Assembly (NCBI RefSeq): GCF_056746865.1
Contig: NZ_CM163382.1
Direction: 5' to 3' (one strand)
Length of the DNA: 64,000 nt
This document shows, piece by piece, positions 29-45,424 of this stretch (its first letter is position 1; the number at the start of each line of letters is the position of its first letter). Both the position numbers and the translations under genes were made by a program. A model generated the notes under the pieces. The model was not told the origin of the DNA. It saw only the letters and a program-made list of their open reading frames with translations, and did not search any database.

Positions 29-1075
29 TTAACGTCCTGCTTTCAGCTTCTGATAATACTCTTCATAAATGCTGCTGGCTGCGCCAACGTCATTCTGCCA
101 TTCACCATTTTTAATGGTTTCAGCATCCGGGTAGAGCGTTTTATCGTTCGCCACTTCCGGACTTAACAGCTTACGCGCCGCAAGGTTTGGCGTTGGATAA
201 CCGATAGTTTCAGCAACCTGTTTTGCCACATCCGGGCGCAGCAGGAAGTTGATCAATTTCAGCGCGCCTTCTTTGTTTTTGGCATTTGCTGGGATCGCCA
301 GGCTGTCCATCCAGAAAATGCCGCCTTCTTTCGGCCACACCACATCAATTGGCGTACCCGCCTGGCGTGCAACGAAAGCAGAACCGTTCCAGATCATGCC
401 GAGGTTAACTTCGCCTTCCATATACGGGTTCGCCGGGTTATCGGAGTTAAACGCCGCGACGTTTGGCATCAGTTTTTTCAGCTCGTTGTATGCAGCTTCA
501 ATCTCTTTCGGATCGGTGGTGTTACCGGAGTAGCCCAGCTTACGCAGCGCCATCTGGAACACTTCACGGGCATCGTCGGTCAGCAGCAGGCTGCCTTTGT
601 ACTCAGGCTTCCACAGATCGGCCCAGCTGGTAACGGATTTGGGATCCACCGCATCACCATTAACACCAATCGCCGTCGCACCCCAGATATACGGAATGGA
701 GTAGTCGTTATTCGGGTCAAACGGCTTATTGAGCATGTCTGGATCGAGGTTGCTGAAATTGCTTAACTTCGACTTGTCGATCTTCTGGATCATCCCTTGT
801 TTACGCATTTTATCGACGTAATAGGTTGAAGGAACCACCAGGTCATAGGCACCGTCTTTGTACGTTTTCAGCTTGGCATACATGGTTTCGTTCGACTCGT
901 AAGTCGAATAGATAACCTTAATACCGGTTTCTTTGGTGAACTGTTCAAGCAGTCCTGGTGGCACGTACTCGGTCCAGTTGTAAAAATACAGCGTGTTGTT
1001 GTCATCGGCGTGAGCGGCGCTCATGCCCAGTGCCAGAGCACCCGCCGCGAGCAGGTGGCGTGACCATTTTTTCAT
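29..1075 (-). CDS. potD: Spermidine/putrescine ABC transporter periplasmic binding protein
   Basis: 348-aa ORF with N-terminal signal peptide (MKKWSRHLLAAGALALGMSAAHA); recognised as PotD; last gene of the pot operon. Confidence 0.92.
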   Translation of the reverse strand: MKKWSRHLLAAGALALGMSAAHADDNNTLYFYNWTEYVPPGLLEQFTKETGIKVIYSTYESNETMYAKLKTYKDGAYDLVVPSTYYVDKMRKQGMIQKIDKSKLSNFSNLDPDMLNKPFDPNNDYSIPYIWGATAIGVNGDAVDPKSVTSWADLWKPEYKGSLLLTDDAREVFQMALRKLGYSGNTTDPKEIEAAYNELKKLMPNVAAFNSDNPANPYMEGEVNLGMIWNGSAFVARQAGTPIDVVWPKEGGIFWMDSLAIPANAKNKEGALKLINFLLRPDVAKQVAETIGYPTPNLAARKLLSPEVANDKTLYPDAETIKNGEWQNDVGAASSIYEEYYQKLKAGR

Positions 1076-1866
1076 TTAACGTCCCCTGTGTTACCTTTCG
1101 TTTTATCACGAGCAATAAGCTGGCTGGCAATTACCATCACCAGCGACAGCACCAGTAATATGGTTGCCAGCGCGTTAACTTCCGGCGATACGCCGACTTT
1201 GACCATCGAATAAATTTTTAACGGCAGAATTTCATAGCTTGGTCCGGTGACGAACGAAGAAACTACTACATCGTCCATCGACAGGGTAAAGCTTAACACC
1301 CAGCCCGCCGCTACCGCTGGCATTGCCAGTGGCAGAATGATTTTTCGCAGAATGGTAAATTCGCTGGCACCGAGATCTTTCGCCGCTTCCAGCATTCGCA
1401 CGTCAAAACCTTTCAGGCGCGAATACACTGTCACCACCACAAATGGCAGGCAGAAGGTGATATGCGAGAACAGCAGCGACCAGAAGCCAAGCTGAATACC
1501 CAGCAGCATAAACAGCACCAGCAGAGAAATCGCCATCACAATATCTGGCGACATCATCACCACAAACAGCATTCCGCTAACGAATGGCTTACCGCGAAAG
1601 CGATAACGGTACAGCGCAACTGCAGTCAGTGAACCGATAAGCGTAGCAAACGTCGCTGAAAACACCGCCATCGTCAATGAATGCTGAGCTGCCTGCAACA
1701 GACTGTCGTTGTTCATCAGCAGGCTATACCATTTAGTGGTAAAACCCTGCCAGTTGATGCCAAAGCGCGAGCTGTTAAAGGAGTTCACAATCAAAATAAT
1801 GATTGGGATATACAGGTACGCGTAGATAGCGGTCATAAAACCGCCGCGAAGCAGTCGACCGATCAT
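1072..1866 (-). CDS. potC: Spermidine/putrescine ABC transporter permease
   Basis: 264-aa polytopic membrane ORF; stop overlaps potD start; RBS GAAGGTGG upstream of the ATG. Confidence 0.92.
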   Translation of the reverse strand: MIGRLLRGGFMTAIYAYLYIPIIILIVNSFNSSRFGINWQGFTTKWYSLLMNNDSLLQAAQHSLTMAVFSATFATLIGSLTAVALYRYRFRGKPFVSGMLFVVMMSPDIVMAISLLVLFMLLGIQLGFWSLLFSHITFCLPFVVVTVYSRLKGFDVRMLEAAKDLGASEFTILRKIILPLAMPAVAAGWVLSFTLSMDDVVVSSFVTGPSYEILPLKIYSMVKVGVSPEVNALATILLVLSLVMVIASQLIARDKTKGNTGDVK

Positions 1867-1874
1867 TCGAGTTC

Positions 1875-1887
1875 CACCTTCTTATTC
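1875..1887. other. Prophage attachment site core, int-proximal (attL); 13-bp CACCTTCTTATTC
   Basis: Exact 13-bp direct repeat of 44579..44591; lies between the potC start and the integrase gene. Confidence 0.6.
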
Positions 1888-2032
1888 ATAAGGCGGGACA
1901 CTTTCAGGATTTTGAATTTATTCAATTTTTCCCTTTCTCCAAAATCTCTCCAAAACGTTTCCCCAAAACTAGGCCACGCATTTTACAACACTTTTTTCCT
2001 GAGATGGTGACGGATATTCCATATGGTGTTTG

Positions 2033-3151
2033 TCAAATAACCAACTTAACCCATTCCTGACCTCGAGTATCGTTATAGCGATCGGTGGTTGCCTGGACTT
2101 TATGTCCTAGTAATGTTTTTGTATCGATACCCTGTGCACGGTACAGCCGTTCTGATAGAGAGCGTTGTTCATGAAATGTTGGCGGAGTTTTTCCTGCTGG
2201 TGGAATTATCCCAGCCAGATCCCGTGCTTTGGCAAAGTAGTCGCTCAGGTTGTCTTTACTCATCGGCTTCGGTTGTTTCTGGTGCCGACTATGGATTAGA
2301 TATGGACTTAATATTCTGTCTCGGCACCCATCAATAACTTCTTTTAACGTTATCCCAATGGCATCACAGCGTAGTGTAAGCGGTAACGCCAGACGCATTC
2401 CGGTTTTTCCCTGGGTGATATGCAAGTGTTCGTTCCACACATCTGAAAAACGCATGTGGCAAATGTCATCACGGCGCTGACCAGTAACAATCGCAAGAAG
2501 CATTGCGTTACGGATAAAGTGTTTTTCAGGCGTTGCATTGTAAATTTTTTGCCAGTCTTCCATGGTGAGCCTGGCTCTGGTTACTTTAGGGATCGGTTTA
2601 CGGGTAGCCTCCGGAGGATTCCATCCAGGAGGAACTTCCCCTGCATGCTGTGCTTCTTTATAAATATCAACCCATAATCCACGATTTACTCTCGCTGTGC
2701 TGACCATGTCTTTATCCAGCCACTCATCCAGTATTAATGCAAAGTCTCTTACTTCCAGTTCTTTCAATGGGTGGTTTCCCAGACGGGAAACCAGGTATGC
2801 AGCCATTCGAGTTTTTTCTTTGTGAGTTGTAGCTGCAATATCTCCATTTTTCAGTCGCGTGTTCTGTATTTTCAGATATCGATCAACCCATGCCTTTAAT
2901 CTGATACCCCGACGTTTTGTTGCTGACGGACTTTCATCAATTTTGCGCATGAAATATTCAGCTTCTGCTGCAGCTATTCGCTGATTGGCTGTGGAAGCGA
3001 TTTTTTCTGCCTTACCTTTGTCTGTTCCGAGTCCGTGAAATTTTCCAGTCACAGGATTTTTATACTGGTAGTAAACTCTGCCAGTTCTGCGATCAAACTT
3101 TTCGTAAAGACCGGCTACGTCAGTGCTGTTTTTTCGTGGCCTCGGTGACAT
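2033..3151 (-). CDS. int: Phage tyrosine integrase (lambda Int family)
   Basis: 372 aa; C-terminal LLGHKVQATTDRYNDTRGQEWVKL resembles the lambda Int catalytic tail; adjacent to att core. Confidence 0.9.
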   Translation of the reverse strand: MSPRPRKNSTDVAGLYEKFDRRTGRVYYQYKNPVTGKFHGLGTDKGKAEKIASTANQRIAAAEAEYFMRKIDESPSATKRRGIRLKAWVDRYLKIQNTRLKNGDIAATTHKEKTRMAAYLVSRLGNHPLKELEVRDFALILDEWLDKDMVSTARVNRGLWVDIYKEAQHAGEVPPGWNPPEATRKPIPKVTRARLTMEDWQKIYNATPEKHFIRNAMLLAIVTGQRRDDICHMRFSDVWNEHLHITQGKTGMRLALPLTLRCDAIGITLKEVIDGCRDRILSPYLIHSRHQKQPKPMSKDNLSDYFAKARDLAGIIPPAGKTPPTFHEQRSLSERLYRAQGIDTKTLLGHKVQATTDRYNDTRGQEWVKLVI

Positions 3152-3389
3152 GAGTTAAAATCTCCTTCAGTGCATCATCATCGCCAGTATGAATTTCCGG
3201 CGCAATTCCCGTTTCACCAGGCCCAACAAATACTGCTCGGCGATCTATCAGCCAACGCCCACGAATTTTTTGTGGTCTTGGAACGATGTATCCTAGTTTT
3301 CCGTATTTCACCAGGGTAGTGTTTGTTATTGGGAGACTGAACCGTTTTGGTTTCCACTCGTCGAGCGTTATCAGGTACTGTTCGCTCAT
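3120..3389 (-). CDS. xis: Excisionase (Xis-like)
   Basis: Small basic ORF directly upstream of int and overlapping it; GGAG 8 nt before the ATG at 3389 (track ORF extends to a GTG at 3398). Confidence 0.65.
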   Translation of the reverse strand: MSEQYLITLDEWKPKRFSLPITNTTLVKYGKLGYIVPRPQKIRGRWLIDRRAVFVGPGETGIAPEIHTGDDDALKEILTHVTEATKKQH

Positions 3390-3450
3390 GGCTATCACTC
3401 CGGAACGCGCCAGTTGCAGAATATCAACGACAACTGGCGACGGTTGAACA

Positions 3451-5889
3451 TTAAAAATCAGCCTGACTCGGGATCAGTTTTTGCCAGATAACTGAAACGT
3501 ATTTTGCCTGGTAACGGGCGTCATCAAGTGCATTATGGCGCTCACCTTCGAATGGAATAGCCGTTCTGGCATCGAAGTCTATGGCTTTCCCCAGCTCAAC
3601 GATTGTGCGTACATCTCGATCGTTGTAGTAACGCCACGGGCAGGGGATCCCCTGCCGTTCGTATGAACGGCGCAAAATCGTGTTGTCGAAGTTGGCTCCA
3701 TTTCCCCAGACCTGAACAAAAAATTCACCGGAGTTTTCGTCGATAAATTCCCGCAATTGTAACAGTGCATCATCTAACGGGATTTCATCGGTCATAATGG
3801 CAGATTGCGCTTCGCGTGATTGCTTAAGCCACCATTTAATGGTGTCCCGATCAATGACCCCGCCAGCAGTTTCCAGATCGATAGTCTTACTAAATTCCGG
3901 TCCCATATCTCCGGTTTGCGGATCGAAAAATATTGCACCTATTGAGATGATCGGGGCATCAGGATTTTTTCCCATGGTTTCAAGGTCGATCATTAGATGG
4001 TCACACGTCCTGCTGGTGGATGTGATAACGTGATGACCGTTCACCGTAATTAAGGGATCTGCCGTCTCGCCAGTTTCACTATCGCTGGCGTGATCCTGAG
4101 CGCTGCCAGCATTCTCCTTGTGTGGATGTTCAGCGCCTTCCATTTCCTTCGGATCATTTTCCTGAACTTCAACCTGATTCTCTTCATCGAATGTTTCCTG
4201 GTATGTTGCGTCGCCCATCACCGCGCCACAATCAGGGCAGTTGCCGCCGCCGGTCTGACCGCAGGCGGTGCAGATCTTTTCCGGTTCCTGTTGCACTACT
4301 GGTTCAGGTTGTTTCGTTTCTGGCTCGTTTTGTAACGCATTTGGGCTGTTTTGTTCCGCTTTCTGGTCGTTCTGTTCCGATTCTTGCTGGTTCTGGTTTA
4401 CAGAATCGCGGGTTTCAATCCCCTTTACCCATTTCGGATCATTCGGGTCGCTAATCCCTGCAACAAATTCTCCGCGAGAGGCAGCAAGCAACTTATCGGC
4501 GTCAGGCTGGCTGATATTGGCTGCCTGCATAATTTTGTTTACTTCGTCAGCGGTAACTTTTACCTGTGACTTGTCATCCAGCGGCTGCGGGTCCTGATGA
4601 TGTTCAACTGTATCCGCTGCCATTGTTTCAGCCGTTGCCTGTTCATCTGCCATTGCGCCAGATGGTTGCGGGTTATCTTCATCATTTTTTTCTTCTTCTG
4701 TTTTGCACTCAGCAGCCAGTCCGCCGTTAATTTCTTCCAGGATATCTTTTTCCGGTGTATGCCGGGCAGCCATGAGCGTTTCAGCTGTGGGATTCTCGTG
4801 ATCAGTTTCTGTCAGGTTGGCATTGATATACCCCTGAAGGCGCCCCGGGTAGTGATAAAACTCAGGGTGGGCGCTTCGGATAAGTGCAAAAATAGCTGCG
4901 CGGGAATAGTCCAGGATACCAGGGGTTGCGCGAAGTGCTGCGGACCATTCCCTGAACGGACTTTCTTTTTTCAGGACGATTTCTTTTGCGCGACGATAAA
5001 CGCTGCCCGGAATTTCATAAATATTAAAATCCATCGGAAGTGTGGCTGCTGCAATCTCCACATCCAGCGCATCGAAGGTGTGTACTAAATTCGGATTGCG
5101 ATCGGTTTTGTTCCCGCCACCGGCATTTGCACCGGAAGCCGTACGGGTGATACGCGAAACACGATTTCCTTTCATCCACTCTTTTGTCAGCAGACCCCGA
5201 TCAGTGTAATCAGCGTCCAGGTATGCCTCGAAAAAAGCAGTTATCAGTCCCAGGTCTGAATTACCGGGATTAGGGAAAACTTTGTCAGTGTCGCGTACCA
5301 GTTTGTGAAGGTCGCGAATCTCCAGCGGGTCGAGCAGCTTTGTTTTGTGAGAAATGGCCAGGGCAGTAACAGCCGGCAGTTCTTCCGCCCGTGCTATATG
5401 TAATGCCTGAAGTTCTTCCCGTGCAACGTGCGTTACTGGTTTTTCGCTGCTGTGTTGCGCAAGCCAGCGAATGGGCAGCTCCTGACCAGAAACCGGCAGG
5501 AGCATATTCTCCTCAATCTCCGTCATGTCTTCGCCGTTGACGTTGGTATTGTCAGTACTGGCTGGTTTCTCCTGCACGGAGGGAGAGGGCGCGATAAATA
5601 CCATTGTAATGCCATCTTCCCCGCCTTTTTCGTATCGGTTGCAGAATTCGGTATCAAACACGCCTTCAGGTGGAAGGTCATTCACAACGGGTAAATGGAC
5701 GCGAACGGGTTTTTTAAAGTCGTCTTCATCATAATCGTTGTCATCCATTGCGGTAATGCAGCGGGAGATGGCAACAGATAATTTTTTTGCTGTAGTCCAG
5801 TAAAAACCACCTTTAATTCCCAGACGTTTTCTGACTTTGTCATTTTTTGCTTCGCAATATAGCGCAAATTCTTCTTTATCAGTGCTCAT
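3451..5889 (-). CDS. Large prophage exonuclease-like protein (DEDDh-type 3'-5' exonuclease C-terminal domain, acidic linker, Cys4 zinc ribbon)
   Basis: 812 aa; C-terminal motifs [23 protein letters not shown] resemble DnaQ-like Exo I/II/III; CTACG...CPDCG zinc ribbon; position equivalent to recE/exo in lambdoid early-left operons. Confidence 0.6.
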
Positions 5890-5981: not shown

Positions 5982-6170
5982 TTATCCAGCCGGTGTTTCG
6001 TTATTCAGGTACAGCGATACTTTTTTTACCGGGAGGCATTCACCAGAAATTTTTTGCTCGTCTCTTGCCTGGAGGCAGGATTCTTTACTGGCATAAATTC
6101 CGGTAATCACATTCTGTGATTCACCCGTTATAAGAAAAACCGTCATCATCAGTGCAAATGCTGAAGTCAT
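5982..6170 (-). CDS. ydfD: YdfD-like small protein
   Basis: 62-aa ORF immediately downstream of dicB-like gene, as in the Qin dicB operon; N-terminal hydrophobic stretch. Confidence 0.45.
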   Translation of the reverse strand: MTSAFALMMTVFLITGESQNVITGIYASKESCLQARDEQKISGECLPVKKVSLYLNNETPAG

Positions 6171-6355
6171 TGACGCTCTCCGAAAATACCAAGTTCAAGA
6201 AGAGCAATTCGGGAAAGTATGGAATTATCATTGAGCAGATAAGGCTCATATTTCCTCATATTAATGGCATCTTCAGTAAACTCCCGGTTACTGAGCAGAA
6301 CACCAATATCAAAACAACCTTCAGACGTATTAACGTTTGGTAATAACGTTTCCAT
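6167..6355 (-). CDS. dicB: DicB-like cell-division inhibitor
   Basis: 62 aa, METLLPNVNTSEGCFDIGV...FTEDAIN closely matches the DicB N-terminus as recalled; sits downstream of a DicF-like sRNA. Confidence 0.75.
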   Translation of the reverse strand: METLLPNVNTSEGCFDIGVLLSNREFTEDAINMRKYEPYLLNDNSILSRIALLELGIFGERQ

Positions 6356-6532: not shown

Positions 6533-6590
6533 TAAAAAGGGCGGCAGAGCAGTCACGGAGTAAAACTGATACCGCCAAACGTCACCAGAA
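6533..6590 (-). ncRNA. dicF: DicF small RNA (ftsZ-targeting sRNA) with intrinsic terminator
   Basis: Minus-strand sequence TTTCTGGTGACGTTTGGCGGTATCAGTTTTACTCCGTGACTGCTCTGCCGCCCTTTTT matches DicF as recalled; GC hairpin plus T-run; conserved position upstream of dicB. Confidence 0.75.
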
Positions 6591-7826: not shown

Positions 7827-8070
7827 GCTGACCTCATTTCCCCTTAACGCCGGGGTAGCGGAACAAAAACCTGCTGCATAGTTATTAAAGTTGAACCCTG
7901 CCGTCATGTTCTTACGCCTCGGGCTGGCTACTTAACCCCTGACCACTGCCGGGTAACTCGAAGTATTTCCCTGCGTTCTGTGGGGCGGGGTGGGTTGGTA
8001 TGTTGTTAATGTAACAAGAGTTACCTTTCGAGTCAATACAATGTTGCAAAAGGTACATTTGAGGGCATAA

Positions 8071-8098: not shown

Positions 8099-8872
8099 TC
8101 AGTCTAAGTATTGATGTATTTGTGAAACTTTACCTTTAATGGTGTAACCACCATTCAGTTCGATGGGTTTGTAAAGCGGATTCAGTGACAACAAATAGAT
8201 GTTTGGTCCGTCAATCGCAACTTTTTTTAGTGTTACGTTTGGCGTTCCTTCCAATTGGATTAAGATTATTTTTCCCACCAGTTCTCTAATGTTACTTGAG
8301 CATGGTGTGATCAGCACGGTAGATCCGTCGGGGATGGTTGGGAGGCCGTTAGAGTTTGTCATCGCATCTCCCTCAACATGCAATAAAAAAGAGTTTTCAG
8401 CGGTTTTTGTCATGACATCAACCCAGTTATTAATACCAGGAATCTTGGTTACTGGACAACTCATATCCCAATAACCAGCCTGTTCCCACGTTAAAACGGG
8501 CAACCGGGCGATGTTGTCACTAATGTAAGGGTACTGATTCAGACGCAGATCATCGGTTTTATCGTGACAGTCCTTTCCATAAAGAATCCATTCAGGAGAT
8601 TTGGAAAGCAATTTTGACAGTAGATACAAATTCTCACCGTCAGGTTTTGAAGAGCCATTTTCCCATTTTGTTACGGATACACGAGATATGCCGATTGCTT
8701 TCGCAACCTGCTGTTGGGTTAATCCAACGTCTTTTCGACGATTCCGAATACGTTCGCTGATAGTGTTTTTCATGTAACCAATGTTACTACCAAGTGATGT
8801 TGCTATGGTTGACATTGTTATGTAACTATTGTTACCCTTCTGCTCGAAATAACAGGAGAGTTTTATGTTCAA
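8099..8872 (-). CDS. cI: CI-like phage repressor (XRE HTH plus S24 LexA-like peptidase domain)
   Basis: HTH region GLTQQQVAKAIGISRVSVTKWENG; C-terminal S24-like region; divergent from cro-like gene; likely true start at ATG 8815 (MSTIATSLG). Confidence 0.85.
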   Translation of the reverse strand: MNIKLSCYFEQKGNNSYITMSTIATSLGSNIGYMKNTISERIRNRRKDVGLTQQQVAKAIGISRVSVTKWENGSSKPDGENLYLLSKLLSKSPEWILYGKDCHDKTDDLRLNQYPYISDNIARLPVLTWEQAGYWDMSCPVTKIPGINNWVDVMTKTAENSFLLHVEGDAMTNSNGLPTIPDGSTVLITPCSSNIRELVGKIILIQLEGTPNVTLKKVAIDGPNIYLLSLNPLYKPIELNGGYTIKGKVSQIHQYLD

Positions 8873-14897: not shown

Positions 14898-15155
14898 ATA
14901 CAGCGAACGCCATTGGTTTAGTTGGATATTTACTGTGCCGGACAAAAACGGTTTGCGGGGAAATCTTAGTTAAGTAGAATGACTGCGGGTGCTTGAGGCT
15001 ATCTGTCTCAGGCATGAACACCAAAAGGCAGATAGAGAAAAGCCCCAGTTAACATTACGCGTCCTGCAAGACGCTTAACATTAATCTGAGGCCATATCTA
15101 TGCGACACATAGAGATTAGCCTCTTACGGACCGAAAGGTCAAGGAGAAGCAGGCT

Positions 15156-15311
15156 ATGAAGCAGCAAAAGGCGATGTTAATCGCCCTGATCGTCATCTGT
15201 TTAACCGTCATAGTGACGGCACTGGTAACGAGGAAAGACCTCTGCGAGGTACGAATCCGAACCGGCCAGACGGAGGTCGCTGTCTTCACAGCTTACGAAC
15301 CTGAGGAGTAA
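15156..15311 (+). CDS. hok: Hok/Gef-family type I toxin
   Basis: 51 aa MKQQKAMLIALIVICLTVIVTALVTRKDLCEVRIRTGQTEVAVFTAYEPEE, Hok-like TM helix plus CE(I/V)R motif; AAGGAG RBS; short overlapping upstream leader ORF (mok-like). Confidence 0.85.
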   Translation: MKQQKAMLIALIVICLTVIVTALVTRKDLCEVRIRTGQTEVAVFTAYEPEE

Positions 15312-15751: not shown

Positions 15752-16802
15752 CGTGCGGATATTACTTCGACCTGTTCTGGTACCGGAACTCGGGCTGGTG
15801 GTCCTTAGGCCGGGCCGTGAATCCATGCCGGTATTCCACAATACCCGGGTACTGGTGGAGCCTGAACCGAAAAGCATGCACGGTCTGCCGTCCGGAGTCG
15901 TCCCTGCCGTTCGCCAGCCGCTGGCGGAGGATAAATCATTTCTGCCATTTTTCAGCGATGAGCGGGTGATTCGTGCTGCTGGCGGCGCTGGGGCACTGTC
16001 TGACTGGCTGTTGCGTCATGTCAAATCCTGCCAGTGGCCTCATGGTGACTATCATCACAGTGAAATCGTCATACATCGTTACGGTACCGGCGCGATGGTG
16101 TTGTGCTGGCACTGCGACAACCAGTTGCGCGACCAGACCTCCGAATCACTCGGGCAACTTGCTCATCAAAACCTGTCAGCATGGATGATTGACGTCATAC
16201 GCCATGCAATGAATGGCACGCAGGAGCGGGAATTGTCGCTGGCTGAATTATCCTGGTGGGCGGTCCGCAATCAGGTGGCGGACGCGCTACCGGAAGTGGT
16301 ATTACGTCGTTCGCTGGGGTTGCGTGCGGAAAAAATCCGCTCAATGTACCGTGAAAGCGACATCGTACCGGGAGAGCAGACCGCCACCAGCATACTGAAA
16401 CAGCGCACAAAAAATATTGCGCCGCTGCCTCACGCCCACCAGCAACAGAACCCACCACAGGAAAAGACGGTGGTCAGCATTGCCGTTGATCCTGAGTCTC
16501 CGGAATCTTTCATGAAACGACCTAAACGTCGCCGCTGGGTTAACGAGAAATACAAACGCTGGGTGAAGACACAGCCGTGTGCGTGTTGTGGTAAGCCAGC
16601 CGACGATCCCCATCACCTGATTGGTCATGGTCAGGGCGGAATGGGGACAAAATCTCACGATATTTTCACGCTACCGCTGTGTCGGGAGCATCACAACGAG
16701 CTTCATGCGGATCCTCTGGCGTTCGAACAAAAGCATGGTTCTCAGGTTGATTTAATTTTTCGTTTTCTTGATCACGCCTTTGCAACTGGCGTGCTTGGGT
16801 AA
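15681..16802 (+). CDS. DUF968-like protein (Cys/His-rich C-terminal domain)
   Basis: C-terminal CACCGK...HHLIGHGQGGMGTKSHD...CREHHNELH region typical of prophage DUF968/YdfU-like proteins; start uncertain (alternative ATG 15825). Confidence 0.55.
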   Translation: MSGSLIPNAHRAHPAHSSNASGGNVRILLRPVLVPELGLVVLRPGRESMPVFHNTRVLVEPEPKSMHGLPSGVVPAVRQPLAEDKSFLPFFSDERVIRAAGGAGALSDWLLRHVKSCQWPHGDYHHSEIVIHRYGTGAMVLCWHCDNQLRDQTSESLGQLAHQNLSAWMIDVIRHAMNGTQERELSLAELSWWAVRNQVADALPEVVLRRSLGLRAEKIRSMYRESDIVPGEQTATSILKQRTKNIAPLPHAHQQQNPPQEKTVVSIAVDPESPESFMKRPKRRRWVNEKYKRWVKTQPCACCGKPADDPHHLIGHGQGGMGTKSHDIFTLPLCREHHNELHADPLAFEQKHGSQVDLIFRFLDHAFATGVLG

Positions 16803-18159: not shown

Positions 18160-18295
18160 AGGCTTTTTTATTTGTGGTAAATGGGCGGCTGGTGGGTGTG
18201 GTGGTAGACTGGCCCCCTGAATCTCCAGACAACCAATATCACTTATTTAAGTGATAGTCTTAATACTAGTTTTTAGACTAGTCATTGGAGAACAG

Positions 18296-18661
18296 ATGAT
18301 TGATGTCTTAGGGCCGGAGAAACGCAGACGGCGTACCACACAGGAAAAGATCGCAATTGTTCAGCAGAGCTTTGAACCGGGGATGACGGTCTCCCTCGTT
18401 GCCCGGCAACATGGTGTAGCAGCCAGCCAGTTATTTCTCTGGCGTAAGCAATACCAGGAAGGAAGTCTTACTGCTGTCGCCGCCGGAGAACAGGTTGTTC
18501 CTGCCTCTGAACTTGCTGCCGCCATGAAGCAGATTAAAGAACTCCAGCGCCTGCTCGGCAAGAAAACGATGGAAAATGAACTCCTCAAAGAAGCCGTTGA
18601 ATATGGACGGGCAAAAAAGTGGATAGCGCACGCGCCCTTATTGCCCGGGGATGGGGAGTAA
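18296..18661 (+). CDS. insC: IS2 transposase OrfA (InsC)
   Basis: [40 protein letters not shown]... matches InsC. Confidence 0.9.
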
Positions 18662-19524
18662 GCTTAGTCAGCCGTTGTCTCCGGGTGTCGCGTGCGCAGT
18701 TGCACGTCATTCTCAGACGAACCGATGACTGGATGGATGGCCGCCGCAGTCGTCACACTGATGATACGGATGTGCTTCTCCGTATACACCATGTTATCGG
18801 AGAGCTGCCCACGTATGGTTATCGTCGGGTATGGGCGCTGCTTCGCAGACAGGCAGAACTTGATGGTATGCCTGCGATCAATGCCAAACGTGTTTACCGG
18901 ATCATGCGCCAGAATGCGCTGTTGCTTGAGCGAAAACCTGCTGTACCGCCATCGAAACGGGCACATACAGGCAGAGTGGCAGTGAAAGAAAGTAATCAGC
19001 GATGGTGCTCTGACGGGTTCGAGTTCCGCTGTGATAACGGAGAAAAACTGCGAGTCACGTTCGCGCAGGACTGCTGTGACCGTGAGGCACTGCACTGGGC
19101 GGTCACTACGGGCGGCTTCAACAGTGAAACAGTACAGGACGTCATGCTGGGAGCGGTGGAACGCCGCTTCGGCAACGAGCTTCCGGCGTCTCCAGTAGAG
19201 TGGCTGACGGATAATGGTTCATGCTACCGGGCTAATGAAACACGGCAGTTTGCCCGGATGTTGGGGCTTGAACCGAAGAGCACGGCGGTGCGGAGTCCGG
19301 AGAGTAACGGCATAGCAGAGAGCTTCGTGAAAACGATAAAGCGTGACTACATCAGTGTCATGCCCAAACCAGACGGGTTAACGGCAGCAAAGAACCTTGC
19401 AGAGGCGTTCGAGCATTATAACGAATGGCATCCGCATAGTGCACTGGGTTATCGCTCGCCACGGGAATATCTACGGCAGCAAGCCAGTAATGGGTTAAGT
19501 GATAACAGGTGTCTGGAAATATAG
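18619..19524 (+). CDS. insD: IS2 transposase OrfB (InsD), DDE domain
   Basis: 301-aa ORF overlapping orfA in -1 frame, typical IS3-family frameshift arrangement. Confidence 0.9.
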
Positions 19525-19879
19525 GGGCAAATCCAGGTGGTTGTTGCTTTCCCGTTGCTGAAAAAGAAAACGCCAGACTGTTAGCCGGGTATCAGTTATC
19601 TGGAGAAATTTTTAAATACCTCACAATTCAGGCGGTTGACTGTTGTCTGGTTTGCGGGGAGTTTGTTAAAAGAAACTGGCATGGTGAATCCCCCTGTGCG
19701 GAGGGGCAATCAGCAACTGGTGTTTTGTCACCGACCCTTATCCTTTCTGTGCGGGTTCAGGTGCTGATACTGAACTCACCGGGAGGCACCCGGCATCATG
19801 CAATGGCACATAGCGCCACTCTCCAGCCCCTCTCCGGAGGGGCTGTTTATATTGATTTTGTCAGATGTGAGTAAACTCC

Positions 19880-42698: not shown

Positions 42699-43282
42699 TG
42701 GCATTCAGAATGAGTGAACAACCACGGACCATAAAAATTTATAATCTGTTGTCCGGAACTAATGAATTTATTGGTGAAGGTGATGCATATATTCCGCCTC
42801 ATACAGGTCTGCCAGCAAACAGTACCGATATTGCACCGCCAGATATTCCGGCTGGCTTCGTGGCTGTTTTCAATAGTGATGAGTCATCGTGGCATCTCGT
42901 TGAAGACCATCGGGGTAAAACGGTTTATGACGTAGCGTCAGGGGACGAGTTATTTATTTCTGAACTCGGTCCGTTACCGGAAAATGTTACCTGGTTATCG
43001 CCGGAAGGGGAGTTTCAGAAGTGGAACGGCACAGCCTGGGTGAAGGATACGGAAGCAGAAAAACTGTTCCGGATCCGGGAGGCGGAAGAAACAAAAAACA
43101 ACCTGATGCAGGTAGCCAGTGAGCATATTGCGCCGCTTCAGGATGCTGCAGATCTGGAAATTGCAACGGAGGAAGAAACCTCATTGCTGGAAGCCTGGAA
43201 AAAGTATCGGGTGTTGCTGAACCGTGTTGATACATCAACTGCACCTGATATTGAGTGGCCTACGAACCCTGTCAGGGAGTAA
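42698..43282 (+). CDS. tfa: Tail fibre assembly protein Tfa
   Basis: 194 aa, [18 protein letters not shown]... as lambda Tfa. Confidence 0.9.
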
Positions 43283-44560: not shown

Positions 44561-45424
44561 TTAATCATCTAATTCGCTCACCTTCTTATTCAGCAAACGA
44601 GAAGCGCGCCAGTAAACCAGCAACATCAGGCCCATTACGATAGTCAGCGTAATGCTGGTGGCTGCACCAAACGGCCAGTCACGAATATTGAGGAACTGTA
44701 CTTTGATGACGTTACCGATCAGCAGGTTTTTCGCACCGCCCATCAGGTCGGACACATAGAACAGGCCCATCGCTGGCAGCATCACCAACAGGCATCCGGC
44801 AATAATCCCCGGCATCGTCAGTGGGATAATGATACGGATAAAGGTCTGCAACTTGCTGGCACCGAGATCGCGCGCCGCCTCCAGCAACGGCTTATCCAGT
44901 TTTTCGATACTCGAGTACAGCGGCATCACCATAAACGGCAGCAGAATGTAAACCAGACCGATAATCACCGCACTGGGTGTGAACATGATGCGAATTGGTG
45001 TATCGATAACGCCCAGCCAGAGCAAAAACTCGTTGAGATAGCCTTTGGTGCTGAGGAAAATTTTCAGCCCGTAGATACGAATCAATGAGTTGGTCCAGAA
45101 CGGAACAATCAGCAGAAACAGCAGCAGCGGACGCACCTTGTGTGGCAGCTTCGCCAGAAACCAGGCAAAAGGATAGCCCAGCACCAGGCAGGCGAGGGTG
45201 GCGATCAGCGCCATATTCAGCGAGTGCAATAGCACTTCAAAATAGAGCGGATCGAGCAGACGCGTGTAGTTATCCAGCGTAAAGACCATTTTGACGAAAC
45301 TGGCGTCGTCGCGGGTCAAAAAGCTGGTGCCAATGATCATCAGGTTGGGCAGAAAGACAAACAACACAAGCCAACCGACAATAGTGACAATCACTACATT
45401 CTGGAACTTACTTGTGTTCTTCAT
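44561..45424 (-). CDS. potB: Spermidine/putrescine ABC transporter permease PotB (3' end supplied by prophage sequence)
   Basis: Polytopic membrane ORF overlapping potA stop; C-terminal codons lie on the phage side of the att core; start may be the downstream GTG (about 45394). Confidence 0.9.
44579..44591. other. Prophage attachment site core, distal (attR); 13-bp CACCTTCTTATTC
   Basis: Exact direct repeat of 1875..1887; lies within the 3' end of potB. Confidence 0.6.

What the first reader, a model, noticed from the sequence alone, without database searches (positions are those of the whole stretch)
3451..5889. 812-aa early-operon protein combining a zinc ribbon, long acidic linker and DEDDh-like exonuclease
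This large protein occupies the recE/exo position, but no recT/bet-like partner is evident nearby. Its N-terminal ~500 aa are unassigned, followed by an acidic low-complexity linker, a CxxC...CxxC ribbon and a C-terminal DnaQ-like exonuclease. Such a nuclease at the start of the early-left operon could act in recombination or in attacking incoming DNA.
Basis: inference. Interest (0 to 1): 0.4.

Follow-up and report, generated by a model that had tools for sequence, protein, structure and literature searches.

The report
RecE-like scaffold with swapped exonuclease head
This prophage gene is real and encodes a relative of the recombination enzyme RecE whose usual 5'-to-3' nuclease has been replaced by a T4 DexA-type 3'-to-5' exonuclease; it has no DNA-annealing partner, is very common in E. 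coli, and its function has not been tested.

Summary
The 812-aa ORF at 3451..5889 (-) is real. It sits at the promoter-distal end of the early-left operon of a ~42.7-kb lambdoid prophage between potC and potB.

Residues 58-615 are 58% identical to Rac RecE residues 50-592, including the CxxC...CxxC ribbon. At "ETGE.ADP.I", where RecE's PD-(D/E)XK nuclease begins, the protein continues into a DEDDh 3'-5' exonuclease. This head matches Pfam PF16473 (E 1e-67), and its closest solved relative is T4 DexA.

No RecT, Bet, Erf or Rad52-like gene occurs in the window or in 80 related loci. All three regions are under purifying selection.

The protein is identical to RefSeq WP_000102132.1. The head DNA occurs in 75% of complete E. 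coli genomes; the RecE head occurs in 32%. K-12 keeps only a truncated relative, the pseudogene ydfE.

The same N-terminal scaffold also carries PD-(D/E)XK heads and, probably, a Rad52-like annealase.

My best reading is a scaffold-tethered 3'-5' DNA-end processing enzyme used in lytic recombination (confidence 0.4). The main rival is a DexA/EcD-like exclusion nuclease (0.2).

The gene is catalogued but not characterised. I rate it a variant of a known kind, of moderate interest.

The parts
3451..5889 (-). Complete 812-aa gene (stop codon included): RecE-type N-terminal scaffold, linker with zinc ribbon, and DEDDh exonuclease head. Identical in protein sequence to RefSeq WP_000102132.1.
4720..5889 (-). 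Residues 1-390: folded N-terminal region homologous to the RecE N-terminus. The Pfam PF06630 match covers residues 57-189 (window 5323..5721). The AF2 model has pLDDT 84.9. No significant structural relative was found in the PDB or BFVD.
4045..4719 (-). Residues 391-615: acidic, low-complexity linker. It holds the motif [25 protein letters not shown] and the zinc ribbon. This stretch is shared with RecE and with the YdfE/Tritos-type exonuclease. It ends at the swap junction [11 protein letters not shown].
4228..4272 (-). Zinc ribbon, residues 540-554: [15 protein letters not shown].
3451..4044 (-). Residues 616-812 plus stop: DEDDh 3'-5' exonuclease head. The PF16473 match covers residues 631-802 (window 3484..3999). 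Catalytic residues are D635, E637, D735, H785 and D790.
3120..3398 (-). Excisionase gene, starting 52 nt downstream of the exonuclease stop codon. In Rac, recT, ralR and rcbA lie between recE and xis; there is no room for them here.
2033..3151 (-). Integrase gene.
5982..6170 (-). ydfD-like gene (DUF1482), immediately upstream. Present in 77 of 80 related loci.
6167..6355 (-). dicB (cell-division inhibitor) homologue.
6539..6590 (-). DicF small RNA, in the same operon.
   Evidence: 76.7 bits, gathering score 48
8008..8036 (-). pL-like sigma-70 promoter match just downstream of the repressor gene. It is a consensus match only. No promoter-like site lies directly upstream of the exonuclease gene.

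Best explanation
The protein is a modular member of the RecE scaffold family found in enterobacterial lambdoid phages. Its N-terminal ~615 residues are the same module as in Rac RecE: two folded domains, an acidic linker and a zinc ribbon. RecE's 5'-3' PD-(D/E)XK nuclease has been replaced, exactly at the domain boundary, by a DexA/Rv2179c-type DEDDh 3'-5' exonuclease. recT has been lost along with the RecE head.

Proposed mechanism:
- The gene is transcribed from pL on induction or infection, together with dicF-dicB-ydfD and xis-int.
- The scaffold brings the nuclease to the same, still unknown, site or partner that RecE's N-terminus uses.
- The head removes nucleotides from 3' ends of DNA at breaks or genome ends. 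This would trim 3' flaps or expose complementary 5' tails.
- Joining and recombination of linear phage DNA could then proceed without a dedicated annealase, completed by host functions and the prophage's RusA resolvase.

Shown here: the domain architecture, the intact active site, the swap junction, the absence of an annealase, the conserved gene order and purifying selection.

Inferred: the substrate, the polarity, the time of expression, and any role in recombination.
For: - Homology and junction: residues 58-615 match RecE 50-592 at 58% identity, and similarity stops at ETGE.ADP.I. The NCBIfam RecE model is matched only over positions 1-603 of 877.
- Head: PF16473 at 1e-67. The closest solved structure is T4 DexA, 8KEL. 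Catalytic D/E/D/H/D align with DexA D7/E9/D119/H186/D191 and are kept in 62-63 of 63 variants.
- Position: the gene sits in the slot where Rac has recE-recT and lambda has exo-bet. No promoter-like site lies between ydfD and the gene.
- Viable phages: the same gene order occurs in Tritos, mEp460 and vB_EcoS-640R1.
- Interchangeable heads: among 84 cluster representatives of at least 450 aa, 25 carry the PD-(D/E)XK head, 14 the DEDDh head, and 9 a tail that resembles a Rad52-type annealase. P0121 has this same N-terminus (88% identity) joined to a PD-(D/E)XK head.
- Recombination neighbours elsewhere: a stand-alone homologue 58% identical to the head lies between erf-ssb and abc2 in the recombination module of phage mEp235.
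- Literature: full-length RecE boosts linear-linear recombination, and its N-terminus is of unknown function (PMC11611040). T4 DexA takes part in intron homing (PMC12153337). A single 3'-5' exonuclease, XthA, is enough for RecA-independent joining of linear DNA with terminal homology in E. coli (PMC6379578, PMC8901738).
- Selection: purifying in all three regions.
Against: - 3'-5' polarity is the opposite of what SSAP- or RecA-based pathways need.
- No annealase is present in the window or in 80 related loci, although those loci are close relatives and not independent.
- Stand-alone homologues in other phages are mostly not next to an annotated annealase.
- The one experimentally swapped Erf/Exo pair, from phage D3, uses a YqaJ-type exonuclease, not a DEDDh one.
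- The gene stays intact in a prophage whose int and xis are frameshifted (ATCC 25922). The head is present in 75% of E. coli genomes. Both facts could point instead to a benefit for the host.
- No biochemical or genetic data exist for this architecture.
Confidence: 0.4

Rival explanations
1. Superinfection exclusion or defence nuclease of the DexA/EcD ('HREX') kind. In this reading the head degrades incoming phage DNA, for example 5hmC-modified T-even DNA, from its 3' ends, and the prophage keeps the gene because it protects the host.
For: - The closest solved relative is T4 DexA.
- A 2025 paper shows that a stand-alone E. coli DexA homologue, EcD, cuts 5hmC DNA and protects against T4 when expressed from a plasmid (PMC12153337).
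- This exact protein, WP_000102132.1, is listed in that paper's Table S3 among bacterial DexA homologues.
- The head occurs in 4051 of 5426 E. coli genomes.
- It remains intact in a prophage with a broken int and xis.
Against: - The head is only 37% identical to the EcD-like protein, which I recovered through the published primer, and 28% identical to DexA.
- The DexA residues said to read 5hmC are not kept. W152 aligns with Y755, which varies as Y/C/H/T among 63 variants. D169 aligns with K or A.
- The Asp whose loss defines EcD's dimer state is retained in 63 of 63 variants.
- The gene lies about 2.1 kb into a repressor-controlled operon, with no promoter-like site of its own.
- The EcD-like gene sits in a different kind of element, next to a Dam-like methylase.
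Confidence: 0.2
2. RNA-directed 3'-5' exoribonuclease. It would trim RNA 3' ends, either as a defence against RNA phages (like the ISG20-like 'TONDO' prophage exonucleases) or to process operon or host RNAs.
For: - Pfam family PF16473 is named after the M. tuberculosis exoribonuclease Rv2179c.
- A 2026 preprint reports prophage-borne DEDDh exonucleases with auxiliary domains that block MS2 and Q-beta by trimming 3' UTRs (PMC13344964).
- The gene lies in one operon with the processed small RNA DicF.
Against: - The nearest characterised relatives, DexA and EcD, are DNA exonucleases (PMC12153337).
- The TONDO set was chosen from ISG20-like proteins under 500 aa. No link to PF16473 or to RecE is stated.
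- The scaffold is shared with DNA recombination enzymes.
Confidence: 0.1
3. Counter-defence or nucleotide-scavenging enzyme of the lytic cycle. It would degrade host DNA, or a host immune nucleic acid or signal, rather than act in recombination.
For: - T4 DexA also serves in host DNA scavenging (PMC12153337).
- The gene is an early lytic gene co-expressed with host-directed functions (dicB, ydfD, DicF).
Against: - Lambdoid phages are not known to degrade host DNA (my knowledge).
- There is no PADLOC or anti-defence family match beyond a marginal hit at E 0.025.
- This reading does not explain the RecE scaffold.
Confidence: 0.1

Closest known systems
RecE (exonuclease VIII) of the Rac prophage, E. 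coli K-12
   Same: - The N-terminal ~600 residues are homologous: 58% identity over residues 58-615 against RecE 50-592, including the zinc ribbon and acidic linkers.
- It occupies the same operon slot upstream of xis-int.
- RecE's N-terminus is itself of unknown function (PMC11611040).
   Different: - RecE ends in a PD-(D/E)XK 5'-3' dsDNA exonuclease (PF12684) and is followed by recT.
- This protein ends in a DEDDh 3'-5' exonuclease and is followed directly by xis.
- It falls below the NCBIfam RecE cut-off, 907 against 1269 bits.
YdfE (Qin prophage pseudogene of K-12) and the 823-aa exonuclease of phages Tritos and mEp460
   Same: - Residues ~443-812 (linker, zinc ribbon and DEDDh head) are nearly identical.
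- The gene order is the same: dicF-dicB-ydfD-exonuclease-xis-int.
   Different: - The first ~245 residues are unrelated, so this is a second type of N-terminus on the same head.
- K-12 ydfE is only the first 256 codons of that gene, cut by IS2E.
T4 DexA (exonuclease A; PDB 8KEL, 8KEN)
   Same: - It belongs to the same DEDDh family, and all five catalytic residues align.
- It is a phage-encoded 3'-5' exonuclease.
   Different: - Identity is only 28%.
- DexA is a stand-alone 227-aa protein with extra loops.
- W152 and D169 are not conserved here.
EcD ('HREX' defence exonuclease, PMC12153337)
   Same: - It is a DexA-family DEDDh exonuclease found in E. coli mobile elements.
- The protein studied here appears in the same paper's list of homologues.
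   Different: - An EcD-like protein recovered through the published primer is a 189-aa stand-alone protein, 37% identical to this head.
- It has Ala at the tetramer position where this protein keeps Asp.
- It lies in a different element, next to a Dam-like methylase.
Stand-alone lambdoid exonuclease of phage mEp235
   Same: - It is 58% identical to the head and matches PF16473 over its full length.
- It is an early-left operon gene close to xis-int.
   Different: - It is 182 aa long with no scaffold.
- It is flanked by erf, ssb and abc2, so an annealase is present.

Membership tests
RecE / exodeoxyribonuclease VIII (NCBIfam NF007259 equivalog) | N-terminal Exonuc_VIII region (Pfam PF06630) | tested here: met
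   PF06630 at E 2.7e-33, residues 57-189. BLASTP gives 58% identity over residues 58-615.
RecE / exodeoxyribonuclease VIII (NCBIfam NF007259 equivalog) | C-terminal PD-(D/E)XK 5'-3' nuclease domain (PF12684; RecE residues ~600-866) | tested here: not met
   - The model is matched only over positions 1-603 of 877, scoring 907 bits against a cut-off of 1269.
- There is no BLASTP or tblastn similarity to the RecE head anywhere in the window.
- K-12 RecE itself hits PF12684.
RecE / exodeoxyribonuclease VIII (NCBIfam NF007259 equivalog) | Adjacent recT annealase gene | tested here: not met
   - The stop codon lies 52 nt before xis.
- RecT is absent from the window and from 80 related loci.
- All listed RecE-head hits in E. 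coli are annotated recE plus recT.
DEDDh (DnaQ-like) exonucleases, Rv2179c-like/DexA family (Pfam PF16473) | Profile match above the curated cut-off | tested here: met
   227.4 bits against a cut-off of 27, covering profile positions 2-177 of 177.
DEDDh (DnaQ-like) exonucleases, Rv2179c-like/DexA family (Pfam PF16473) | Catalytic Asp-Glu-Asp-His-Asp residues in the three Exo motifs | tested here: met
   D635, E637, D735, H785 and D790 align with DexA D7, E9, D119, H186 and D191. They are kept in 62-63 of 63 variants.
DEDDh (DnaQ-like) exonucleases, Rv2179c-like/DexA family (Pfam PF16473) | 3'-5' exonuclease activity, and choice of substrate (DNA or RNA) | not testable with these tools
   This needs an enzyme assay.
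HREX / EcD-type 5hmC-specific defence exonuclease (PMC12153337) | Homology to DexA | tested here: met
   phmmer E 1.7e-6 to 8KEL. WP_000102132.1 appears in Table S3 of the paper.
HREX / EcD-type 5hmC-specific defence exonuclease (PMC12153337) | Conserved 5hmC-reading residues (DexA W152 and an acidic residue at D169) | tested here: not met
   W152 aligns with Y755, which varies (39 Y, 16 C, 5 H, 3 T of 63). D169 aligns with K or A, depending on the alignment. The loop alignment at 28% identity is uncertain.
HREX / EcD-type 5hmC-specific defence exonuclease (PMC12153337) | Loss of the tetramer-forming Asp (DexA D90; Ala78 in EcD) | tested here: not met
   The aligned residue D707 is Asp in 63 of 63 variants.
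HREX / EcD-type 5hmC-specific defence exonuclease (PMC12153337) | Expression in the uninfected lysogen and protection against phage | not testable with these tools
   The only available observation is indirect: no promoter-like site lies upstream of the gene.
Two-component phage recombinases (exonuclease plus single-strand annealing protein: Red, RecET, Erf/Exo) | A 5'-3' exonuclease paired with an adjacent annealase | tested here: not met
   The head is of the DEDDh type. No Bet, RecT, Erf or Rad52-like gene is present in the window or in 80 loci searched to 6 kb on each side.

The most novel reading that the evidence does not exclude
The RecE N-terminal region would be a general docking scaffold for phage DNA-end transactions that accepts interchangeable catalytic heads: a 5'-3' exonuclease, a 3'-5' exonuclease, or a Rad52-like annealase. 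The DEDDh version would define a third type of lambdoid recombination function. That function would be annealase-independent, join DNA through 5' tails in the manner of XthA-driven in vivo assembly, and be more widespread in E. coli than RecET.
Probability: 0.2. Interest if true: 0.65.

Novelty: new variant of a known kind. Interest (0 to 1): 0.4.

Why it matters
- Open question: the function of the ~600-residue N-terminus of RecE has been unknown for decades, although it improves linear-linear recombineering. Nature has attached the same scaffold to a nuclease of opposite polarity, and apparently to an annealase. This gives a ready-made domain-swap series for testing what the scaffold does.
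- Prevalence: the DEDDh head is in about three quarters of complete E. coli genomes, often in several copies. It is absent from lambda and truncated in K-12, which may be why it has not been studied.
- Annotation: many phage records call this protein 'exodeoxyribonuclease VIII'. That label implies the wrong polarity and the wrong fold.
- Consequences: if it acts in recombination, it bears on how prophages in pathogenic E. coli exchange modules. If it acts in exclusion, it would be one of the commonest phage-defence genes in the species.

Tried and rejected
- A first word-indexed homologue search with the N-terminus returned only near-identical partial E. coli fragments and gave no view of diversity. 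Many are cut near the linker and head, probably because assemblies break at this repeated cassette (my inference).
- I checked whether the Erf/Exo pair of phage D3, shown to replace lambda Red (PMC3945230), uses a DEDDh exonuclease. It does not; it is YqaJ-type.
- PADLOC gave only a marginal hit, E 0.025.
- The exact reverse primer of EcD matched nothing in IMG/VR. The forward primer did recover an EcD-like gene whose 3' end differs from the printed primer by one base.
- Literature searches for RecE combined with DEDDh or Rv2179c, and for ydfE, found no functional study of this architecture.
- A weak lambda Gam tblastn hit at 16482-16592 (E 0.003) lies antisense inside the DUF968 gene. I dismissed it.
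Full report
**Setting**

The window holds an E. coli lambdoid prophage inserted between potC (1072..1866) and potB (44561..45424). A 14-bp direct repeat, CACCTTCTTATTCA, lies at 1875-1888 and 44579-44592 and probably marks the attachment core.

Reading leftward on the minus strand, the order is:
- a cI-like repressor (8099..8872);
- a pL-like promoter match (8036..8008);
- several small ORFs of unknown function;
- the DicF small RNA (6539..6590);
- dicB (6167..6355);
- a ydfD-like gene (5982..6170);
- the 812-aa gene (5889..3451);
- xis (3398..3120);
- int (3151..2033).

The gene therefore lies at the promoter-distal end of the early-left operon. This is the slot where Rac carries recE-recT and lambda carries exo-bet.

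**Check of the observation**

The ORF, its length, the zinc ribbon, the acidic stretches and the C-terminal DEDDh domain are all present as described.
- The ribbon is C540/C543/C551/C554.
- The acidic stretches have pI about 4.1-4.4.

The ORF is a real gene.
- The identical protein is RefSeq WP_000102132.1.
- 63 distinct full-length variants were recovered from 80 viral contigs.
- Pooled dN/dS is 0.14 for residues 1-390, 0.34 for residues 391-615 and 0.21 for residues 616-812.
- The catalytic residues and the four cysteines are almost invariant.

**What the protein is**

NCBIfam's RecE equivalog aligns to residues 1-615 but only over model positions 1-603 of 877. The score is 907 bits, below the cut-off of 1269.

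BLASTP against K-12 RecE gives 58% identity from residue 58 to residue 615 (RecE 50-592). This span includes [31 protein letters not shown]. Similarity stops at ETGE(T/V)ADP(L/V)I(T/V). [quoted passage not shown]

From residue 616 onward, the protein is instead a DEDDh exonuclease.
- Pfam PF16473 (Rv2179c-like) matches at 1.3e-67.
- The closest solved structure by sequence is T4 DexA, 8KEL and 8KEN.
- D635, E637, D735, H785 and D790 align with the DexA catalytic residues.

The protein is thus a RecE scaffold with a swapped nuclease head of opposite polarity.

**The N-terminal region**

An AlphaFold2 model of residues 1-400, built on 31 sequences, is confident (mean pLDDT 84.9). It shows a small alpha/beta domain followed by a helical domain.

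The family is small. An exhaustive HMMER search found 212 cluster representatives among 1.84 billion proteins.

**No annealase partner**

I ran tblastn with K-12 RecT, lambda Bet, Exo and Gam, mEp235 Erf, SSB and Abc2, and the Rad52-like tail. None gave a real hit in the window. None gave a hit in 80 IMG/VR loci with up to 6 kb of flank. In contrast, 77 of those 80 loci carry ydfD and dicB. The loci are 81-100% identical to the query, so they are not independent samples.

Family scans of the early-left and nin-region ORFs show no annealase. The prophage does encode RusA.

The viable phages Tritos, mEp460 and vB_EcoS-640R1 share the order int-xis-exonuclease-ydfD-dicB-DicF, with no annealase annotated within 5 kb on either side.

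**Modularity**

The Tritos and mEp460 protein (823 aa) shares residues ~443-812 with this one almost exactly, but its first ~245 residues are unrelated. Those residues are the K-12 Qin pseudogene ydfE, which is cut by IS2E. K-12 therefore has only a decapitated copy.

I classified the 84 representatives of the RecE-type N-terminus that are at least 450 aa long:
- 25 carry the PD-(D/E)XK head;
- 14 carry the DEDDh head;
- 9 carry a third tail;
- the rest are truncated or carry other tails.

P0121 has this same N-terminus (88% identity over residues 1-263) joined to a PD-(D/E)XK head.

The third tail has the motif FGPxGxGWG...KKSLTDAxKKALSxLGFxAD...GLYD.
- Its best Pfam hit is Rad52_Rad22, at E 0.0034 and below the cut-off.
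- Stand-alone relatives in Pseudomonas phages are annotated by some depositors as RAD52-like annealing proteins.
- In one locus it is followed by Sipho_Gp157 and then xis-int.
- Structure-based confirmation failed, so this assignment is only suggestive.

A stand-alone exonuclease 58% identical to the head lies between erf-ssb and abc2 in phage mEp235. Other stand-alone homologues sit among unannotated early genes or next to an integrase.

**Prevalence**

The 594-nt head is covered at 80% or more in 4051 of 5426 complete E. coli genomes. There are 8100 sites in all, up to seven per genome, mostly at 95-99% identity.

The RecE head, always annotated together with recT, is in 1730 of 5426 genomes.

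RefSeq names the protein 'exonuclease' or '3'-5' exonuclease'. Several phage records call it 'exodeoxyribonuclease VIII'.

**Function**

I found no experimental study of this architecture.

*Best explanation: DNA-end processing in lytic recombination (confidence 0.4).* The points in favour are:
- the operon slot;
- co-transcription with xis-int, with no promoter-like site of its own;
- a scaffold shared with RecE and apparently with an annealase;
- the mEp235 neighbourhood;
- DexA's known role in intron homing (PMC12153337).

Together these point to a lytic-cycle enzyme that acts on the 3' ends of DNA. Work on XthA shows that a 3'-5' exonuclease alone can drive homology-dependent joining of linear DNA in E. 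coli (PMC6379578, PMC8901738). The lack of an annealase therefore does not rule out a recombination role.

*Main rival: exclusion in the manner of EcD (confidence 0.2).* A stand-alone E. coli DexA homologue is reported to cut 5hmC DNA and to protect against T4 (PMC12153337). This exact protein is in that paper's table of homologues. Several points count against the rival:
- An EcD-like gene recovered through the published primer is only 37% identical to the head.
- The residues proposed to read 5hmC are not conserved here: Y755 is variable, and K or A replaces D169.
- The Asp whose loss defines EcD is retained.
- The gene lies deep inside a repressed operon.

*Weaker alternatives.* These are an RNA-directed role, suggested by the Pfam family name and by the 2026 TONDO preprint (PMC13344964), and a counter-defence or scavenging role.

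**Verdict**

The protein is abundant and already catalogued. It is often mis-labelled as RecE and has not been characterised.

Its interest lies in the natural head swap on the RecE scaffold. That swap makes the long-unknown function of the RecE N-terminus testable.

I rate it a new variant of a known kind, with interest 0.4.

Noticed in passing
proteins P0127, P0179, P0181, P0183, P0188, P0203, P0212, P0242, P0255; locus L116 5001-7445: The RecE-type N-terminal scaffold also occurs fused to a third C-terminal domain with the motif FGPxGxGWG...KKSLTDAxKKALSxLGFxAD...GLYD. It resembles a Rad52-type annealase: the Pfam Rad52_Rad22 hit is at E 0.0034, below the cut-off, and some phage homologues are annotated 'RAD52-like annealing protein'. 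PHROGs labels the family 'exonuclease'. In L116 it is followed by Sipho_Gp157, xis and int.
   Followed up: partly
locus L099 5187-6167 (-) and 6401-6991 (-): The RecE-type zinc-ribbon motif ([24 protein letters not shown]) also ends a Dam-like DNA methylase. That gene lies two genes from an EcD-like stand-alone DEDDh exonuclease, in a small integrative element. The ribbon looks like a mobile module.
   Followed up: no
locus L118 6079-6999 (K-12 MG1655 Qin prophage): The K-12 pseudogene ydfE is 99% identical to the first 256 aa of the 823-aa Tritos/mEp460 exonuclease and is cut by IS2E. K-12 has therefore lost the DEDDh head.
   Followed up: yes
window 3451-4044, compared with all complete E. 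coli genomes: The DEDDh head DNA is present in 4051 of 5426 genomes, with up to 7 copies and mostly 95-99% identity. The RecE head with recT is present in 1730 of 5426. Such uniformity across different N-termini suggests frequent exchange of this cassette among prophages.
   Followed up: partly
window 1875-1888 and 44579-44592: A 14-bp direct repeat, CACCTTCTTATTCA, flanks the prophage. One copy lies just upstream of potC and the other inside the 3' end of potB. It is probably the att core, which gives a prophage of about 42.7 kb.
   Followed up: partly
window 6539-6590 (-), 6167-6355 (-), 5982-6170 (-): A Qin-type division-inhibition and lysis module (DicF sRNA, dicB, ydfD) lies directly upstream of the exonuclease. 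It accompanies the exonuclease in 77 of 80 related loci.
   Followed up: partly
window 14987-15158 (+), 19650-19854 (+), 43041-43239 (+), 18251-19524 (+): Rfam matches to the sok antitoxin RNA, STnc100 and IS009. ORFs for an IS3-family transposase (HTH_Tnp_1 plus rve) lie inside the prophage, near the Q-like antiterminator region.
   Followed up: no
locus L001 7585-8939 (E. coli ATCC 25922): In ATCC 25922 the same prophage has frameshifted int and xis, yet the exonuclease gene is intact and encodes the identical protein.
   Followed up: no
protein P0121: This variant has the same N-terminus but an internal deletion that joins two 'GGGN' repeats (residue 259 to residue 550 of this protein). It removes the second half of the scaffold and half of the zinc ribbon, and it carries a PD-(D/E)XK head.
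   Followed up: no
locus L007 3809-4771 (Vibrio phage VP58.5): A 320-aa homologue of the head carries its own, unrelated CxxC...CxxC ribbon directly N-terminal of the DEDDh domain, and a second Cys/His cluster at its C-terminus. The pairing of a ribbon with a DEDDh domain therefore recurs independently.
   Followed up: no
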